Shown piece after piece: positions 9,019-14,805 of a stretch of 64,000 bases of DNA. Made by a program: the position numbers and the translations under genes. The DNA is from Bacteriovoracaceae bacterium (GTDB lineage Bacteria > Bdellovibrionota > Bacteriovoracia > Bacteriovoracales > Bacteriovoracaceae). Every line of letters begins with the position of its first letter. The first letter of the stretch is position 1. Location: the NCBI GenBank assembly GCA_050247975.1, contig JBFWTE010000021.1, forward strand, positions 272-64,271, written 5' to 3'. The notes below the pieces were generated by a model, which was not told the origin of the DNA, did not search any database, and worked only from the letters and a program-made list of their open reading frames with translations.

Positions 9019-9876
9019 ATGAAAAACATTCAAGTTGTTGGAATTGTTGGTGCTGGGCAAATGGGACGAGGTATTGCTCAGGTGGCGGCCCAAAGTGGTT
9101 TTGACGTCATTTTATATGATGCTTTTAAAACATCTCTTGATTTTGGCCATAATTTTATTAAGACGCAGTTAGATAAAGGTGCCGAAAAAGGAAAGTGGAG
9201 TGCTGATGAGGCGAAGTCTGCTTTTGCTAAAATTAAAGCAACACTGGAACTCAATGACCTTAGAAATTGTGACTTGGTGGTTGAAGCTGCTACTGAAAAA
9301 AAAGATCTTAAATTCGATATTTTTAAAAAATTAGATGAAGTCGTTAAGGCCGATGGAATTTTGGCCTCAAATACTTCTTCAATCTCCATTACTGAAATTG
9401 CCGCTAATACGAAACGTCCTTCGCAAGTTGCAGGAATGCACTTTATGAATCCTGTTCCAGTGATGAAGTTGGTAGAGGGGATTAGAGGTCTTGAAACTTC
9501 TGATGAGACTTTCAATACTGTTGCGGCCGTGTCTGAAAAAATGGGCAAAACGTTTGTTCGCGCTCAGGACTATCCTGGTTTTGCAGTAAACCGAATTCTT
9601 ATGCCAATGATTAACGAAGCTGTTTATGCTCTCTATGAAGGTGTCGCTTCGGTGAAAGATATTGATACGGCCATGAAACTTGGAACCAATCAGCCCATGG
9701 GCCCGCTAGAGCTTGCTGACTTTATTGGGCTTGATACATGTTTGGCGATTATGAACGTGCTTCATGATGGACTGGCAGATACAAAATATCGTCCTTGTCC
9801 TCTCTTAAAGCAATACGTGGCCGCTGGAAGATTTGGCCGTAAAAATGGAAAAGGATTTTATACTTATGATAAGTAA
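9019..9876 (+). CDS. hbd: 3-hydroxybutyryl/3-hydroxyacyl-CoA dehydrogenase
   Basis: GAGQMG Rossmann motif, ASNTSS, GMHFMNP, GFAVNR, PMGPLELADFIGLD. Confidence 0.93.
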   Translation: MKNIQVVGIVGAGQMGRGIAQVAAQSGFDVILYDAFKTSLDFGHNFIKTQLDKGAEKGKWSADEAKSAFAKIKATLELNDLRNCDLVVEAATEKKDLKFDIFKKLDEVVKADGILASNTSSISITEIAANTKRPSQVAGMHFMNPVPVMKLVEGIRGLETSDETFNTVAAVSEKMGKTFVRAQDYPGFAVNRILMPMINEAVYALYEGVASVKDIDTAMKLGTNQPMGPLELADFIGLDTCLAIMNVLHDGLADTKYRPCPLLKQYVAAGRFGRKNGKGFYTYDK

Positions 9877-10654
9877 GTTTGAGACACTTGGATTTGAAAT
9901 AAAAGATGATTTAGGTTTTTTGACAATCAATCGTCCAGCAAAATTAAATGCGCTCAATATACAAGTTCTTAGAGAATTAAAAGATTGCTTAAGAGAACTT
10001 CAAAGTGAATCAATTAAAGGTCTCGTTGTGACAGGAGAAGGCGAGAAGGCCTTTATTGCCGGGGCCGATATTGCTGAAATGCGACCTATGGCAACTCCTG
10101 AAGCAAAAGCTTTCTCAGAGCTTGGGCAACAAGTGACTCTTTTATTTGAAAATCTCCCTTATCCAACTCTTGCAGCAGTGAATGGATTTGCTCTGGGTGG
10201 TGGTTTTGAGATGGCGCTTTCATGTGATTTTATTTTTGCTACAAAAAATGCTGTATTTGGTTTACCTGAAGTGAAGCTTGGGCTTATTCCAGGTTTTGGT
10301 GGAACCCAAAGACTGGCAAGAGTTGTTGGATTATCCCGGGCCAAAGAACTTATGTTTTCTGGACGAAATGTGATGAGTGACGAGGCCAAAAGTTTAGGAA
10401 TTGCTTTAGAAGTTTTTGAAAATAAATCAGCTCTTCTAGAAGGTGTTCAAAATTGGTTTAAAATGGCTCTTCAAAATTCAACTTATGCGATTTCTCGAGC
10501 GAAATTGTCTCTTCAGCAGGGTTATGAAGAAAATCTTGTGAAAGGTTTAGAGCTTGAGAAAAATGAGTTTGGAAACTTATTTTCTTCTTATGATATGCAA
10601 GAAGGAACAGCAGCTTTTATTGAAAAACGTAAGCCTCTATTCAAAGGAAAATAA
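9866..10654 (+). CDS. crt: Enoyl-CoA hydratase (crotonase)
   Basis: AFIAGADI, ALGGGFE, GLPEVKLGLIPGFGGTQRL. Likely start is the ATG at 9866. Confidence 0.9.
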   Translation: MISKFETLGFEIKDDLGFLTINRPAKLNALNIQVLRELKDCLRELQSESIKGLVVTGEGEKAFIAGADIAEMRPMATPEAKAFSELGQQVTLLFENLPYPTLAAVNGFALGGGFEMALSCDFIFATKNAVFGLPEVKLGLIPGFGGTQRLARVVGLSRAKELMFSGRNVMSDEAKSLGIALEVFENKSALLEGVQNWFKMALQNSTYAISRAKLSLQQGYEENLVKGLELEKNEFGNLFSSYDMQEGTAAFIEKRKPLFKGK

Positions 10655-10655
10655 T

Positions 10656-11798
10656 ATGATGTTAGATGAAAAGTATAAAGAAATTCGCGACATGGTGAAA
10701 AAGTTTTCTGACTCAGAAGTGGCCCCGCTTGCTGCTAAAATTGATCATGAGGGACATATTCCGTCAGAGTTAATTGCAAAGCTTGCTGAAAATGGTCTTC
10801 TTGGCTCTTATGTTCCAGAAGAATATGGTGGAGCTGGCATGGATTACACTTCATATTCACTAATCGTAGAAGAAATTTCTCGAAATTGTGCTTCAACCGG
10901 TGTGTTTATTTCTGCCCATACTTCTCTTGGAATTTGGCCAATTTTAAATTTTGGAACTGAAGCTCAAAAGAAAAAATATCTTCCAAAAATGGCCAGCGGA
11001 GAGTTGATTGGTTGTTTCTGTCTATCAGAGCCAAATGCTGGATCTGATGCTGGATCATTAACAACTTTTGCTGAAGACAAAGGCGATCATTGGGAAATTA
11101 ATGGTGTAAAAAACTGGATCACTAATGGCCAGGAAGCTGGTGTTTGTATCGTTTTTGCTAAAACAAAGAAGACTCCAGACTATAAAGGAATTTCAGCTTT
11201 TATTGTTGAAACTTCTACCCCTGGATTTTCAATTATTAAAAAAGAAGACAAGCTTGGGATTCGTGGATCTTCAACTTGTCAGCTAGCTTTTGATAAAGTT
11301 AAGGTTCCTAAGGATGCCCTCCTTTCAGAGCCTGAAAAAGGTTTCAGAGTTGCTATGGCCACTTTAGATGGTGGACGTATTGGGATTGCCTCTCAGGCGT
11401 TAGGTATTGCTCAAGGGGCCTTTGATTACGCCATCCGTTACGTTAAGCAGAGAGTGCAATTTGGTGCTCCACTTTCTGATCTTCAAGGAATTCAATTTAT
11501 GCTTGCTGATATGAGCACTAAAATTGGGGCCTCGAGACTTCTTATTTATCATGCTTCAGCTTTAAAAGATGCAGAGCTTCCATATTCGAAAGAATCGGCC
11601 CAAGCGAAACTATTTGCTTCTGAGTCGGCCATGTGGATTACGACTAAGGCAATCCAGCTTTGTGGTGGAAATGGCTATACTAAAGAGTATCCAGTAGAGC
11701 GTTATTTTAGAGATGCTAAAATTACTGAAATCTATGAAGGAACATCTGAAGTTCAGCGCATGGTAATTGCAGCTAATGAATTAAAGGCAGTACATTAA
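10656..11798 (+). CDS. bcd: Short-chain (butyryl-CoA-type) acyl-CoA dehydrogenase
   Basis: LSEPNAGSD, NGVKNWITN, KLGIRGSST, LDGGRIGIA, IYEGTSEV; follows hbd-crt. Likely start 10656. Confidence 0.88.
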   Translation: MMLDEKYKEIRDMVKKFSDSEVAPLAAKIDHEGHIPSELIAKLAENGLLGSYVPEEYGGAGMDYTSYSLIVEEISRNCASTGVFISAHTSLGIWPILNFGTEAQKKKYLPKMASGELIGCFCLSEPNAGSDAGSLTTFAEDKGDHWEINGVKNWITNGQEAGVCIVFAKTKKTPDYKGISAFIVETSTPGFSIIKKEDKLGIRGSSTCQLAFDKVKVPKDALLSEPEKGFRVAMATLDGGRIGIASQALGIAQGAFDYAIRYVKQRVQFGAPLSDLQGIQFMLADMSTKIGASRLLIYHASALKDAELPYSKESAQAKLFASESAMWITTKAIQLCGGNGYTKEYPVERYFRDAKITEIYEGTSEVQRMVIAANELKAVH

Positions 11799-11810
11799 AA
11801 TTGACTCGTC

Positions 11811-11841
11811 AATGGACACTCTCTTTGCTAGAGTGTCCATT
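11811..11841. promoter_or_regulatory. Perfect 12-bp inverted repeat with CIRCE-like core (operator and/or terminator hairpin)
   Basis: AATGGACACTCT-N7-AGAGTGTCCATT, containing TGGACACTC-N9-GAGTGTCCA; overlaps TGcTAGAGT extended -10 (11826-11834). Confidence 0.55.
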
Positions 11842-11897
11842 AAATTTGTTGAATGGCCCGACCTGGGTGATCAGATATATTTTTAGGAGAAATAATC

Positions 11898-13031
11898 ATG
11901 GCGAAAAAAAAGCCGGCCGCTAAAATGCCAGTTAAAAAAGCAGTGGTAAAAGCACCTGTAAAAAAAGCAGTGGCAAAACCTGCTCCAAAAAAAGATGTAA
12001 AAATGGCAAAAAAAGTAGCACCTAAAAAACCAGTAGCTCCAGCTAAAAAAGTTGCTGCTAAACCAGCACCAAAAAAAGCAGCTCCAGCTCCTAAAAAATC
12101 AGCGAAAGTTGAAAAGAAAATTGCTCCTAAGTCCCTCAAGGAATCTGTATTAAAAGCAGCTTCTAAGATTGTGGCCAAGGTTGCAGCTAAGCCTTTATCT
12201 AAAGAGCAAGTAAAAGCACAAAAAGAGAAAGAGGCCAAAGAAAAAAAATTAGCTGCAGAAAAAGCTAAAGAGCTTGAGAAGAAAAGAAAAGAAGAAGAGA
12301 AGATAAAGGCCAAAAAAGAAAAAGAAGCAGAAAAAGCTTCTAAGAAAAAAGGCAAAAAATCTGAAGATGAAGAAGAGATGTATGGCGAAGAAGAAAGCAT
12401 GCAATCTCGTTCAAAAAATGAAGATGAAGATTTTGATGAGTTCGAAGAGGACTATAAAAAATCAAAGGCAAAAAAATCTGGTAAGAAAGCTTATGAAGAA
12501 GATGAAGATCAAATTGATCTTTTTGAAACAAAGCCTACTAAGAAATATAACAATGCTATTCTGGCAGAACTTGAATCAAAAATAGCTGATGAAATAGCTG
12601 AGCTTCGCGAGCATTTCAACTGGAAAGATATTTCTGATGCCATTGGTACTCTTGATTTCTTTATTGATCCAAAAAATGATGAATGTATCGAAAAGGGTTG
12701 TGACAACATTCGTACAACTCAAAGTTACTGTCGTGCCCATTATTTAAAAAATTGGAAAACAATTCAGAAGAAGCGTGACATTCTTAAAGAAGGAAAGCTT
12801 CAAGAATATATTGAAGAGTTAATTTCAAAATACCCTCCTAAATATATCGAAGCTCTTTTATCTGATCTTTCTGATGATAAAGAATTTTACAGAGTTCTTA
12901 ATGAACTTAACATCACATCTGAATTTGATTTCGAGGAAGATGAATTCGAAAATGCAGTGGATGATGATGATACAGATGATGATATTGGTATTGAAACAAT
13001 TTCTAGCAGTCTTCGTTACGAAGATGAGTGA
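11898..13031 (+). CDS. Histone H1-like Lys/Ala/Pro-rich protein with acidic tracts and C-terminal CCCH Zn-finger-like domain
   Basis: KKAVxKAP/AKPAPKK repeats; D/E-rich blocks; C-x4-C-x9-C-x2-H (CIEKGCDNIRTTQSYCRAH); RBS AGGAG. Confidence 0.75.
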   Translation: MAKKKPAAKMPVKKAVVKAPVKKAVAKPAPKKDVKMAKKVAPKKPVAPAKKVAAKPAPKKAAPAPKKSAKVEKKIAPKSLKESVLKAASKIVAKVAAKPLSKEQVKAQKEKEAKEKKLAAEKAKELEKKRKEEEKIKAKKEKEAEKASKKKGKKSEDEEEMYGEEESMQSRSKNEDEDFDEFEEDYKKSKAKKSGKKAYEEDEDQIDLFETKPTKKYNNAILAELESKIADEIAELREHFNWKDISDAIGTLDFFIDPKNDECIEKGCDNIRTTQSYCRAHYLKNWKTIQKKRDILKEGKLQEYIEELISKYPPKYIEALLSDLSDDKEFYRVLNELNITSEFDFEEDEFENAVDDDDTDDDIGIETISSSLRYEDE

Positions 13032-13032
13032 T

Positions 13033-13060
13033 AAAAAAGGCTCCTCACGGAGCCTTTTTT
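13033..13060. terminator. Bidirectional intrinsic terminator
   Basis: AAAAAAGGCTCC-TCAC-GGAGCCTTTTTT between convergent genes. Confidence 0.9.
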
Positions 13061-13541
13061 ATTGGTCTAAATCTTCTTCTTCAAATTCTTCAAACTCTGG
13101 CCCTAAAAGTTTATTGGCCTCTAGAGTGGCATTAATATTTTCACGAGAAATTTTGTAAAAATAGTTTTGGTTTTTGTATGAAACTTCCTGCCAATTTGGT
13201 TCGAATTCATCCCATTCTTCATTGGCAAAAATTTCATCAAAGAAAAGTCCTATAATATCAATAAAGTTTTTTTGGGTGTCTTTAACTTTAGATTCATCGG
13301 CCATTTGATCAGGTTCACATGATAAAAAGCATGTAATTGGAGAAAGATACTCATCTTTTTCAGATAGATATGAAACAATCAGTAGGAGTTCTTCGGAATA
13401 AATCTGACCGTAGACATCGAAATAACGGCCATTCTTGTCACATTCAGACTTATAGGTCTCGTTGAGAAGACGGGAAAGACTTTCTTGCCAATCTTGAGGA
13501 ATACTCTTTCCTGCTTTTGAACTTACTTTTCGGGCCAACAT
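13059..13541 (-). CDS. Hypothetical acidic protein
   Basis: 160-aa ORF filling the gap; no motif recognised. Confidence 0.7.
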   Translation of the reverse strand: MLARKVSSKAGKSIPQDWQESLSRLLNETYKSECDKNGRYFDVYGQIYSEELLLIVSYLSEKDEYLSPITCFLSCEPDQMADESKVKDTQKNFIDIIGLFFDEIFANEEWDEFEPNWQEVSYKNQNYFYKISRENINATLEANKLLGPEFEEFEEEDLDQ

Positions 13542-13641
13542 GACGACCTGCCTTATTAATCAATTTAGTGGTAATTTACTTGGCCCTTAATTAAAATATT
13601 TGTAAAAGAAAGACAATGTTTCATTCTCAAAAAGGATATTT

Positions 13642-14805
13642 ATGACTGTTTATATACTTGGGGGAGCTCGTACGGCACTTGGAAGTTTCATGGGGGGCCT
13701 CTCCAATGTTCCTGCTCCAAAGCTTGGGGCAGCAGCGATTGAAGGTGCACTTCAGAAATCGAATGTTGAAAAAAATAAAGTTGATGAAGTGTTTATGGGT
13801 AATGTTTTAACCGCCGGAGTAGGACAAGCTCCAGCAAGACAGGCCTTACTTGCAGCAGGCCTACCTGAAAGTGTTCCTGCAACTACTGTGGGAAAAGTTT
13901 GTGGCTCTGGCTTACAGGCCGTTATTTTAGCTGCTCGCTCAATTATGTCTGGTGAGAATCAATTAGTGGTTGCAGGAGGAATGGAGAATATGTCTCTTGC
14001 TCCTCATATGTTGATGAATTCAAGAAATGGATTTAAATATGGTGCCACTGAAATGAAAGATTCCATGCAGTGGGATGGACTTTGGGATGTGTATACAAAT
14101 CGCGCTATGGGAAATTGTGCGGAAGAGTGTACTAAGAAGTTCAATATGTCTCGAGAAGAGCAAGATGCTTTTGCTATTGAATCATTTAAGCGTGCTCAAG
14201 CGGCCACTAAAGAAGGCTTTTTTAAAGATGAGATTGTTGCTGTAAAAGTTCCGGCCAAAGGTGGAACGGTAGATATTCTAGAAGATGAAGGACCTTTCAA
14301 AGCAAATTTTGAGAAAATTCCATCTTTAAAACCTGCCTTTGAAAAAGATGGTACGATCACAGCTGCTAACGCTTCTACTATTAATGATGGTGCTGCTGCT
14401 GTTGTTCTAGGTGGCGATGCTTTTGCTTCAACTGCTGAATTTAAGATTCTTTCTTTTGCTTCTCATGCACAAAATCCAACATGGTTTACAACTGCGCCTG
14501 TTGAGGCCATTAATAAATCATTGAAGAAGGCCAATTTAACAATTGATCAAGTTGACCTTTTTGAAATTAATGAAGCCTTTGCTGCTGTTACGATGGCCGC
14601 TATGAAGGAGTGTAAAATCCCTCATTCAAAAGTTAATGTCATGGGTGGAGCAGTTTCACTTGGACATCCTATTGGTGCCTCAGGTGCAAGAATTCTTGTA
14701 ACTCTTATGAATGCCATGAAAAAGAAAAAGGCGAAATATGGTTGTGCTGCTATCTGTATTGGTGGTGGTGAGGCCTTAAGCTTAGTGATTGAGAGAATTA
14801 AATAA
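13642..14805 (+). CDS. Acetyl-CoA C-acyltransferase (thiolase)
   Basis: KVCGSG, NEAFA, GHPIGASG, CIGGG. Confidence 0.95.
   Translation: MTVYILGGARTALGSFMGGLSNVPAPKLGAAAIEGALQKSNVEKNKVDEVFMGNVLTAGVGQAPARQALLAAGLPESVPATTVGKVCGSGLQAVILAARSIMSGENQLVVAGGMENMSLAPHMLMNSRNGFKYGATEMKDSMQWDGLWDVYTNRAMGNCAEECTKKFNMSREEQDAFAIESFKRAQAATKEGFFKDEIVAVKVPAKGGTVDILEDEGPFKANFEKIPSLKPAFEKDGTITAANASTINDGAAAVVLGGDAFASTAEFKILSFASHAQNPTWFTTAPVEAINKSLKKANLTIDQVDLFEINEAFAAVTMAAMKECKIPHSKVNVMGGAVSLGHPIGASGARILVTLMNAMKKKKAKYGCAAICIGGGEALSLVIERIK

What the first reader, a model, noticed from the sequence alone, without database searches (positions are those of the whole stretch)
11898..13031. Histone H1-like protein with acidic tracts and a CCCH Zn-finger-like domain
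Seen: about 110 aa of K/A/P/V repeats, a KE-rich coil, two D/E-rich blocks and a folded domain with C-x4-C-x9-C-x2-H (12684-12740); strong RBS and own terminator. Established: PAKK-type tails condense DNA (H1, Hc2, AlgP). Inference: an uncharacterised nucleoid-condensing or RNA polymerase-associated protein whose acidic tracts could act as intramolecular DNA mimics. Relevant to the compact attack-phase nucleoid of predators.
Basis: partly seen in the sequence, partly recalled or inferred. Interest (0 to 1): 0.7.

Follow-up and report, generated by a model that had tools for sequence, protein, structure and literature searches.

The report
Conserved zinc-knuckle protein with histone-like tail
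This gene encodes an unstudied protein found once in nearly every genome of the predatory phylum Bdellovibrionota: a small zinc-binding domain of unknown fold joined to a histone-H1-like basic tail and acidic tracts, probably a nucleic-acid-binding housekeeping factor rather than an attack-phase DNA condenser.

Summary
ORF 11898-13031 (+) encodes 377 aa: a K/A/P/V tail, a K/E coil, acidic blocks, an invariant C-x4-C-x9-C-x2-H motif (12684-12740), a strong RBS and a bidirectional terminator.

It belongs to an unnamed family with no Pfam, NCBIfam or PDB match. The family occurs in 280 of 301 Bdellovibrionota genomes, nearly always once.

The conserved unit is a ~95-aa core: a zinc knuckle, a basic helix and an acidic helical bundle. 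AF2 gives pLDDT 84, and no fold match reaches significance. The knuckle has the spacing of the WRKY19-type finger, which also sits at the N-termini of actinophage EndoVII/HNH nucleases.

The H1-like tail is a lineage-specific addition. Tail-less 107-170-aa forms exist elsewhere in the phylum. The family is a near-neutral block polyampholyte.

By gene order and gene lengths, the B. bacteriovorus orthologue is Bd2092. Its mRNA is growth-phase specific (RPKM 7 in attack phase, 551 in growth phase) and its protein level is nearly constant. This gives no support for an attack-phase-specific role.

My best reading is a nucleic-acid-tethered housekeeping adaptor, DNA somewhat more likely than RNA (confidence about 0.4). 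Nucleoid localisation, DNA binding and zinc binding are untested.

The parts
11801..11884 (+). Conserved upstream region containing a 12-bp-arm palindrome (11811-11841); probable promoter/operator of the gene
   Evidence: The hairpin folds at -17.2 kcal/mol, z -5.4. In about 20 relatives the right arm plus the downstream 'TTTGCTAGAGTGTCCATTAAATTTGTTTTAT' is conserved, but the left arm is not complementary in several (L027, L032, L035, L043).
11885..11889 (+). Shine-Dalgarno AGGAG, 8 nt before the ATG
   Evidence: Read directly from the sequence. GAGGAGAAA-N-ATG is conserved in relatives.
11898..13031 (+). Coding sequence, 377 aa, member of the Bd2092 family (unnamed, no Pfam)
11898..12197 (+). 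Residues 1-100: H1/Hc2-like polycationic K/A/P/V tail, net +30
   Evidence: Composition. 324 of 360 family members have at least 25% K+R in this region.
12198..12359 (+). Residues 101-154: K/E/A-rich charged helix-like spacer, net +11
12360..12512 (+). Residues 155-205: acidic linker (E 29%, D 14%)
   Evidence: The family median linker charge is -19.
12513..12683 (+). Residues 206-262: N-terminal helices of the C-terminal module (EIxxLRExFxWxEIxDAIxTLDFF), conserved only in Bacteriovoracia-type members
   Evidence: Alignment A1. AF2 predicts helices at pLDDT 64-72. This segment is not matched in Bdellovibrio orthologues.
12684..12740 (+). Residues 263-281: zinc knuckle C263-x4-C268-x9-C278-x2-H281 followed by an invariant Tyr
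   Evidence: Invariant in 109/109 sequences and in alignment A2. It is modelled with short strands leading into a helix. It has the same spacing as phage EndoVII/HNH knuckles and Pfam Zf_WRKY19.
12741..12932 (+). Residues 282-345: basic helix (NWKxIxKKRxILKEGKL) followed by an acidic helical bundle (QEYIEELISKYPxKYIE..DLSDDKEFY..L.ELNI)
   Evidence: A2 consensus. AF2 pLDDT 87-94 over this stretch. No fold match reaches significance.
12933..13028 (+). Residues 346-377: acidic C-terminal tail (net -15) ending in a conserved short motif (IGIET....RYEDE)
   Evidence: The family median C-tail charge is -9.
13033..13060 (.). Bidirectional intrinsic terminator shared with the convergent gene
13059..13541 (-). 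Convergent partner gene 'Y': acidic 160-aa protein of unknown function, inferred orthologue of Bd2087
   Evidence: No Pfam, NCBIfam or PDB hit. It lies next to X in about 80 loci of the window's family and in families f10, f12, f13, f23, f24, f26 and f30.

Best explanation
Shown: the gene encodes a cytoplasmic-type protein (no Pfam-detectable membrane or secretion domain) of an undescribed family present in about 93% of sampled Bdellovibrionota genomes, nearly always once. By gene order and gene lengths its B. bacteriovorus orthologue is Bd2092. The conserved unit is a ~95-aa core. It consists of a knuckle with three Cys and one His (WRKY19/phage-nuclease type, C-x4-C-x9-C-x2-H-Y), a Lys/Arg-rich helix, and an acidic helical bundle with no significant structural relative. 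Bacteriovoracia and Bdellovibrionia added a 100-250-aa H1-like polycationic tail and an acidic linker, and the acidic C-tail is kept. The result is an almost net-neutral block polyampholyte.

Inferred mechanism: the protein is a nucleic-acid-tethered housekeeping adaptor. The tail binds a polyanion non-specifically; DNA is the most likely target, given how PAKK-type tails behave in H1, Hc2, HupB and AlgP. The knuckle plus basic helix gives a second, more specific contact with nucleic acid or a partner protein. The acidic linker and C-tail either fold back on the basic parts to tune binding or recruit basic partner proteins. It acts in growing, replicating and transcribing cells and persists into the attack phase. 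It is not an attack-phase-specific nucleoid condenser.
For: - Family breadth and conservation. 108 homologues were found. 604 cluster representatives match among 1.84 billion proteins. 280 of 301 phylum genomes have a match, nearly always one. The genome containing the window has a single copy. The core is 84-92% identical in relatives whose thiolase is 80-90% identical.
- Core structure. With a deep alignment the AF2 model reaches pLDDT 83.6 and shows short strands followed by five helices.
- Knuckle kinship with DNA enzymes. BFVD hits over 25-30 residues (rmsd 0.6-2.4 A, probability up to 0.93) fall on actinophage HNH/EndoVII/'DNA-binding zinc finger' proteins. Those proteins have the identical spacing, and one reads CRAHYL as the window does. 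The Pfam model Zf_WRKY19 scores the phage EndoVII above its cut-off and 7 of 119 family members below it.
- Tail and charge balance..
- Expression of Bd2092. mRNA RPKM is 7.4 in attack phase and 551 in growth phase. The protein was seen with 20 unique peptides at log2 6.48 to 6.86 to 6.64 and is in none of the nine dynamic clusters.
- Strong SD and a clean terminator.
Against: - There is no direct evidence of DNA binding, nucleoid localisation or zinc binding.
- The structural and sequence matches of the knuckle are individually non-significant (E 0.08-10).
- The tail is missing in lineages f3, f6, f7, f11 and f15, so the ancestral function does not need it.
- In those lineages the gene sits among RNA and translation genes (tsaE-X-miaB; rpoA-rplQ-...-X-pseudouridine synthase-RimO/MiaB-like). 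This favours an RNA or translation role about as much as a DNA role.
- Published lists of B. bacteriovorus nucleoid proteins do not mention Bd2092.
- I could not map Bd2092 onto the CAE identifiers of the published nucleoid-fraction proteome.
Confidence: 0.4

Rival explanations
1. RNA or translation-linked factor. The knuckle plus basic helix binds tRNA, rRNA or a ribosomal or RNA-modification partner. The polycationic tail tethers it to RNA or ribosomes.
For: - In tail-less lineages the gene is co-directional and tightly spaced with RNA-modification genes. In f7 the order is tsaE-X-miaB-guaB with gaps of about 50 nt. In f3 the X stop overlaps the miaB start. In f15 the order is X-DCC1-miaB.
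- In all 10 f11 genomes sampled (9 genera) the order is rpsM-rpsK-rpoA-rplQ-redoxin-X-(S4+PseudoU_synth_2 synthase)-...-RimO/MiaB-like on one strand.
- The Bd2092 protein profile peaks at 3 h, as do ribosomal proteins S2 and L31 and RNAP beta, and unlike histone Bd0055, which dips.
Against: - The same block also holds guaB-guaA and, in f12 and f30, thiolase and cNMP genes. The linkage may therefore be inherited synteny of housekeeping genes rather than a functional operon.
- In the window's family and in Bdellovibrio the gene is not next to any RNA gene.
- The closest relatives of the knuckle sit on DNA nucleases.
Confidence: 0.25
2. One reading: an H1-like nucleoid-condensing protein responsible for the compact attack-phase nucleoid, with acidic tracts acting as intramolecular DNA mimics.
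For: - H1/Hc2-type tail. One homologue carries a precomputed Pfam HC2 hit.
- Near-neutral block charge pattern.
- The protein is present in attack-phase cells of B. bacteriovorus.
Against: - Bd2092 mRNA is growth-phase specific and the protein is slightly lower in attack phase than at 3 h.
- Tail-less orthologues exist in several families.
- Its phyletic pattern is independent of the Bdellovibrionota histone.
- The correlation between tail charge and acidic charge is weak (r = -0.25).
Confidence: 0.15
3. Binder of a non-nucleic-acid polyanion or of basic proteins. Either an AlgP-like polyphosphate-granule protein acting through the K-rich tail, or an acidic chaperone for basic proteins (ribosomal proteins, histone).
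For: - AlgP, with a similar KPAA tail, localises to polyP granules (PMC9239181, listed).
- The long acidic tracts resemble those of histone and ribosomal-protein chaperones (my own knowledge).
Against: - The histone Bd0055 phyletic pattern does not track the family. f4 has the histone but no X; f3, f7 and f6/g40 have X but no histone.
- No polyP gene lies in the neighbourhood.
- The invariant element is the zinc knuckle, not the charged tracts.
Confidence: 0.1

Closest known systems
Pfam Zf_WRKY19 (PF24906) type zinc knuckle, as found in tandem at the N-termini of actinophage endonuclease VII / HNH endonucleases (e.g. Gordonia phage Yvonnetastic gp162, Mycobacterium phage Squint gp126)
   Same: It has the identical ligand spacing C-x4-C-x9-C-x2-H followed by Tyr. 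Yvonnetastic reads CSVEACDRQAKTRGMCRAHYL and the window reads CIEKGCDNIRTTQSYCRAHYL. Predicted structures superpose over 25-30 residues at rmsd 0.6-2.4 A. The phage protein passes the Pfam cut-off (29.5 vs 27 bits).
   Different: Family members score only 12.8-14.4 bits, below the cut-off, and the window protein gives no hit. There is a single knuckle rather than tandem copies. No nuclease domain follows; instead there is a unique basic helix plus acidic helical bundle. The function of this knuckle type is itself not established.
Bacterial H1-like polycationic-tail proteins (Chlamydia Hc2, Pseudomonas AlgP, mycobacterial HupB, H1-like CarD variants of myxobacteria)
   Same: It has a long K/A/P repeat tail of PAKK/APKK type. 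In CarD an acidic stretch is likewise combined with the basic DNA-binding region and a separate folded interaction domain (PMC2919716, listed; the rest is my own knowledge).
   Different: The folded domain is unrelated: no HU, CarD_TRCF or coiled-coil AlgP N-domain hit. The domain order is basic-acidic-folded. The tail is dispensable in several lineages. The Pfam HC2 model is not matched by the window protein.
Eukaryotic linker histone H1 and HMGB1-type autoinhibited DNA binders
   Same: The tail composition is that of an H1 C-terminal domain. The opposition of an acidic tail and a basic region recalls HMGB1 autoinhibition (my own knowledge).
   Different: There is no winged-helix globular domain and no HMG box. 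There is no evidence of chromatin binding.
A20-type zinc finger (best PDB Foldseek hits 2eqf, 3vuy, 3vuw)
   Same: It is a small treble-clef-like knuckle with similar spacing (C-x4-C-x11-C-x2-C). The target-normalised TM-score is 0.68-0.74 at rmsd 1.4-1.6 A over 28 residues.

Membership tests
Bd2092 family (new, unnamed; defined here by alignments A1/A2) | Invariant C-x4-C-x9-C-R-x-H-Y knuckle followed by W/F at +4, ILxEGKL, KYP, DL..(D/E)K.F | tested here: met
   Window residues 263-340 carry all of these features. hmmsearch gives E 2.8e-82 in the genome containing the window.
Linker histone H1/H5 | Winged-helix globular domain (Pfam Linker_histone) | tested here: not met
   No Pfam family at E <= 1 for the whole protein.
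Linker histone H1/H5 | K/A/P-rich unstructured tail | tested here: met
   Residues 1-100 are 85% K+A+P+V.
Chlamydial Hc2 (Pfam HC2, PF07382) | Match to the HC2 profile | tested here: not met
   No hit for the window protein. Only one homologue (P0093) has a precomputed PF07382 hit.
zf-CCCH (C-x8-C-x5-C-x3-H) | Ligand spacing and profile match | tested here: not met
   The spacing is C-x4-C-x9-C-x2-H. There is no Pfam hit.
Zf_WRKY19 (PF24906) | C-x4-C-x9-C-x2-H spacing | tested here: met
   The spacing equals that of phage proteins that pass the model.
Zf_WRKY19 (PF24906) | Score at or above the gathering cut-off (27 bits) | tested here: not met
   7 of 119 family members hit, with best E 0.0044. 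The two hits whose scores were printed are 12.8 and 14.4 bits. The window protein gives none.
CarD/CdnL (CarD_TRCF RNAP-interacting domain) | Match to the CarD_TRCF domain | tested here: not met
   No Pfam or NCBIfam hit.
AlgP-type polyP-granule protein | Localisation to polyphosphate granules | not testable with these tools
   Only the composition of the tail is comparable.
Zinc-binding protein in general | Bound Zn2+ | not testable with these tools
   The four ligands are invariant and are modelled as a knuckle plus helix N-terminus. Metal content was not measured.

The most novel reading that the evidence does not exclude
The Bd2092 family is a phylum-defining, probably indispensable component of Bdellovibrionota chromatin or its gene-expression machinery. 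It would be a new zinc-knuckle/helical fold that nucleates charge-driven assemblies with nucleic acid through a self-compensating polycation/polyanion architecture. It would act together with the conserved convergent partner Y (Bd2087), a type of nucleoid or RNP organiser with no counterpart in model bacteria.
Probability: 0.15. Interest if true: 0.8.

Novelty: new variant of a known kind. Interest (0 to 1): 0.6.

Why it matters
Bdellovibrionota have unusual chromatin, with histone-fold proteins and an extremely compact attack-phase nucleoid, and the factors behind it are largely unknown. Published inventories of nucleoid proteins for B. bacteriovorus list HU, IHF, Fis, Dps, SMC, Bd0055 and Bd3044, but not Bd2092.

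This family is nearly universal in the phylum, nearly always single-copy, and as conserved as central enzymes. The Bd2092 protein was detected with 20 unique peptides at every stage sampled, and the fold has no known relative. It is therefore a concrete, testable candidate for a lineage-specific nucleic-acid organiser.

It also gives a first cellular, non-nuclease context for the WRKY19/phage-nuclease zinc knuckle, whose function is not established. If the family turns out to be ribosome- or tRNA-linked instead, it would be a new phylum-specific translation factor.

Tried and rejected
1. Pfam, NCBIfam and PHROGs scans of the whole protein gave nothing.
2. PDB sequence searches with the single sequence and with the profile gave nothing below E 0.07.
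3. The first AF2 run with 26 sequences was unusable (pLDDT 50). It was replaced by a 119-sequence core alignment (pLDDT 83.6).
5. Histone-partner idea: the phyletic patterns of X and of the Bd0055-type histone are independent, so I rejected it.
6. Nucleoid enrichment from Hocher et al. 2023: their tables use CAE ids. A constant NP-to-CAE offset is verified at Bd0055 but gives impossible intensity/iBAQ ratios around Bd2087-Bd2099. Enrichment could therefore not be read out.
7. A literature search for 'Bd2092' found no paper text.
9. Exact-sequence cluster look-ups gave no informative names.
10. A tblastn of the core against phages found only weak knuckle-only matches.
11. A search with the most divergent short form found only close, unnamed relatives.
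12. Family f4 was re-searched with the broader profile. It yielded only knuckle-only small proteins (E 9e-5 to 7e-3), so f4 either lacks the family or has a degenerate version.
Full report
**1. What is in the sequence**

ORF 11898-13031 (+) is real and encodes 377 aa. The protein is about 43 kDa with a calculated pI of 8.6.

Segments, with composition:
- Residues 1-100 are 85% K/A/P/V (net +30) with nine (A/P)xKK repeats.
- Residues 101-154 are K/E/A-rich (net +11).
- Residues 155-205 are acidic (E 29%, D 14%).
- Residues 206-262 are predicted helices.
- Residues 263-281 carry the only three Cys of the protein plus H281, as C-x4-C-x9-C-x2-H (nt 12684-12740).
- Residues 282-345 are helical.
- Residues 346-377 are an acidic tail (net -15).

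AGGAG sits 8 nt before the ATG. A GC hairpin flanked by A- and U-runs (13033-13060) is a strong bidirectional terminator (-24.6 and -20.4 kcal/mol, z about -6.5 to -6.9). It is shared with the convergent gene 13059-13541.

**2. It is a conserved family, not a low-complexity accident**

The whole protein has no Pfam, NCBIfam or PHROGs match and no PDB sequence relative.

- A word-indexed search with residues 205-377 found 108 proteins (E 1e-38 to 6e-99). All that are named are 'hypothetical', apart from one JGI record labelled FlhF, presumably through its K-rich tail. They come from Bacteriovoracaceae, Halobacteriovoraceae, Bdellovibrionota and Oligoflexia MAGs.
- The motif is present in all 109 sequences.
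- A profile of 26 trimmed sequences (A1) found 604 cluster representatives among 1.84 billion proteins, 122 of them below 1e-30.
- In whole genomes the profile hits 280 of 301 sampled genomes of the phylum (259 of 273 high-quality ones), nearly always once. It hits once in the genome containing the window.
- Named genome hits place the window close to Peredibacter and 'Bacteriovorax stolpii' MAGs.
- Across families the match shrinks to profile positions ~50-145, which cover the knuckle and the helices after it.
- Within the window's family the core is 84-92% identical. This is similar to the neighbouring acyl-CoA dehydrogenase and thiolase, and well above the crotonase, the Y gene and the cNMP-binding gene.

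**3. Architecture across the family**

Of 360 complete-looking members, 324 have a K/R-rich N-terminal region. The median N-terminal length is 200 aa.

Median charges are tail +36, acidic linker -19, core -3, C-tail -9, giving a whole-protein median of +2 (IQR -3 to +13.5). The window protein is +41/-20/-3/-13, net +5. The correlation between tail charge and acidic charge is only -0.25.

Bdellovibrio orthologues (~300 aa) have the same tail-acidic-core-acidic layout but lack the N-terminal helices seen in Bacteriovoracia.

Families f3, f6, f7, f11 and f15 have short forms of about 107-170 aa with only a few basic residues before the knuckle. One Oligoflexia-labelled member has an acidic N-terminus instead.

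Family f4 lacks the family proper. It has only 120-140-aa proteins that keep a similar knuckle (CRLHF), a basic helix and an acidic tail.

I conclude that the core is the ancestral functional unit and the H1-like tail is a later addition.

**4. Structure**

AF2 with 26 sequences failed (pLDDT 50). With 119 diverse core sequences (A2) the model reaches mean pLDDT 83.6, and 87-94 over residues 11-80 of the core. It shows short strand bridges around the first three ligands, and the C-x2-H sits at the start of a helix. Five helices follow. This is a treble-clef-like arrangement.

- Against BFVD no hit is significant. However, many of the top 50 align 25-30 residues of the knuckle at rmsd 0.6-2.4 A (probability up to 0.93). 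These are actinophage HNH endonucleases, endonuclease VII and a 'DNA-binding phage zinc finger' protein.
- tblastn against phages gives the same kind of weak knuckle-only matches.
- I translated two of them. Mycobacterium phage Squint HNH endonuclease starts CSIEGCDRQRKYSEWCQTHY. Gordonia phage Yvonnetastic EndoVII starts CSVEACDRQAKTRGMCRAHYL. Both have the same C-x4-C-x9-C-x2-H-Y spacing as the window's CIEKGCDNIRTTQSYCRAHYL.
- Pfam assigns the Yvonnetastic knuckles to Zf_WRKY19 above its cut-off (29.5 vs 27 bits). Only 7 of 119 family members hit that model, with best E 0.0044. The two whose scores were printed gave 12.8 and 14.4 bits.

So the knuckle works like, and may be distantly related to, the WRKY19/phage-nuclease knuckle, but membership is not established. 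The helical part has no detectable relative.

**5. Orthologue in the model predator and its expression**

In a B. bacteriovorus genome of the panel, the order of gene lengths around X is thiolase (1176 nt), a 1002-nt DUF4097 gene, X (897 nt), then 480-nt and 774-nt genes. This reproduces Bd2095, Bd2093, Bd2092 (2005191-2006087, 897 nt), Bd2091 and Bd2089 of strain HD100 in Table S1 of Karunker et al. 2013 (PMC3627812). X is therefore Bd2092, and the partner Y is Bd2087. This identification rests on gene order and lengths, not on a sequence comparison.

- That table gives Bd2092 an RPKM of 7.4 in attack phase and 551 in growth phase, flagged growth-phase specific. Bd2087 is 0.48 and 149.
- In the TMT time-course proteome of PMC12546842, Bd2092 (Q6MLC1, 20 unique peptides) runs from log2 6.48 (attack phase) to a maximum of 6.86 at 3 h and 6.64 at 7 h. 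It appears in none of the nine dynamic clusters.
- RNAP beta, S2 and L31 also peak at 3 h, whereas histone Bd0055 dips.
- Bd2092 is also listed with a protein intensity in the attack-phase data of Hocher et al. 2023.
- No paper text in the library mentions Bd2092. Reviews and recent work list other nucleoid proteins only.
- I could not read its nucleoid enrichment. The relevant tables use CAE identifiers, and a constant offset, verified at Bd0055, fails near Bd2092.

**6. Genomic context**

In about 80 loci of the window's family the order hbd-crt-acd-X(+)-Y(-)-thiolase-cNMP is conserved.

In families f12 and f30 the block is cNMP(-) thiolase(-) [DUF4097](+) X(+) Y(-) miaB(+) guaB(+) guaA(+). 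This looks like the ancestral arrangement from which the others derive.

Tail-less lineages show:
- tsaE-X-miaB-guaB, co-directional with ~50-nt gaps (f7);
- an X stop overlapping the miaB start (f3);
- X-DCC1-miaB-guaBA (f15);
- guaAB-GT2-X-C25 peptidase-rplC (f6);
- in all ten f11 genomes (nine genera), rpsM-rpsK-rpoA-rplQ-redoxin-X-(S4 + PseudoU_synth_2)-...-RimO/MiaB-like on one strand.

This is compatible with a role near RNA or translation. It is equally compatible with inherited synteny of housekeeping genes, since guaBA and thiolase travel in the same block. The window itself contains no miaB or guaBA.

The most persistent neighbour is Y, convergent and sharing the terminator. It has no family or structure match.

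**7. Histone link tested and rejected**

A search with the Bd0055 histone in the same 301 genomes found it in 271. The exceptions do not coincide with those of X. Family f4 has the histone but not X; f3, f7 and f6/g40 have X but not the histone.

**8. Interpretation**

Shown:
- a new family, near-universal in the phylum and nearly always single-copy;
- an invariant Cys3His knuckle of the phage-nuclease/WRKY19 spacing;
- a confidently predicted helical domain with no significant structural match;
- a lineage-specific H1-like tail within a near-neutral block-charge architecture;
- growth-phase transcription and constitutive protein in the inferred B. bacteriovorus orthologue.

Inferred: the protein is tethered to a polyanion by its tail, most simply DNA. 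The knuckle and basic helix give a second contact, and the acidic tracts modulate binding or recruit basic partners.

Its interpretation is partly supported: the protein is uncharacterised, the tail is H1-like and charge compensation is plausible. The finger is not a zf-CCCH, and an attack-phase-specific role has no support from expression.

**9. Novelty and interest**

Polycationic-tail nucleoid proteins are a known kind. This one has an unrelated core of unmatched fold and a phylum-wide distribution, so I rate it a new variant of a known kind. It is of good but not exceptional interest (0.6): it is a ready candidate for Bdellovibrio chromatin and cell-biology laboratories, and the function remains open.

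Noticed in passing
window 13059-13541 (-): Convergent gene Y encodes an acidic 160-aa protein with no Pfam, NCBIfam or PDB match. It stays next to X in many families and shares its bidirectional terminator. Its inferred B. bacteriovorus orthologue Bd2087 is growth-phase specific in mRNA (0.48 vs 149 RPKM) and rises 0.75 log2 in protein at 3 h.
   Followed up: partly
window 11801-11884: The region upstream of X is conserved in about 20 relatives. The right arm of the 11811-11841 palindrome and the following AAATTTGTTTTAT are kept, but the left arm is not complementary in several relatives. This points to a promoter or protein-binding site rather than an RNA hairpin.
   Followed up: partly
window 9019-14805: The hbd-crt-acd and thiolase genes of a butyrate/beta-oxidation-type cluster are separated by the X-Y pair. 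This interrupted order is conserved throughout the family.
   Followed up: partly
L125, L127-L135 (family f11 genomes): In ten genomes of nine genera the short form of X lies on the same strand between the rpsM-rpsK-rpoA-rplQ operon (plus a redoxin gene) and an S4-domain pseudouridine synthase and a RimO/MiaB-like radical-SAM gene.
   Followed up: yes
L144 2043-2366 and L146 3539-3832: In family f7 the order is tsaE-X-miaB-guaB with ~50-nt gaps. In family f3 the X stop codon overlaps the miaB start. Both suggest co-transcription with tRNA-modification genes.
   Followed up: partly
L164-L166 (family f4 genomes): Family f4 lacks the family. It encodes 120-140-aa proteins with a similar knuckle (C-x4-C-x9-CRLHF), a basic helix and an acidic tail, but no KYP helical bundle. 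These may be a degenerate or parallel version.
   Followed up: partly
G000:C51:9136-9309 (genome containing the window, outside the window): The genome containing the window has two matches to the Bd0055-type bacterial histone. The best lies in a 138-aa open frame, longer than the 64-aa Bdellovibrio protein.
   Followed up: no
L117 6476-7477: In Bdellovibrio and several other families a DUF4097 'toastrack' protein (Bd2093) lies between the thiolase gene and X on the same strand as X.
   Followed up: no
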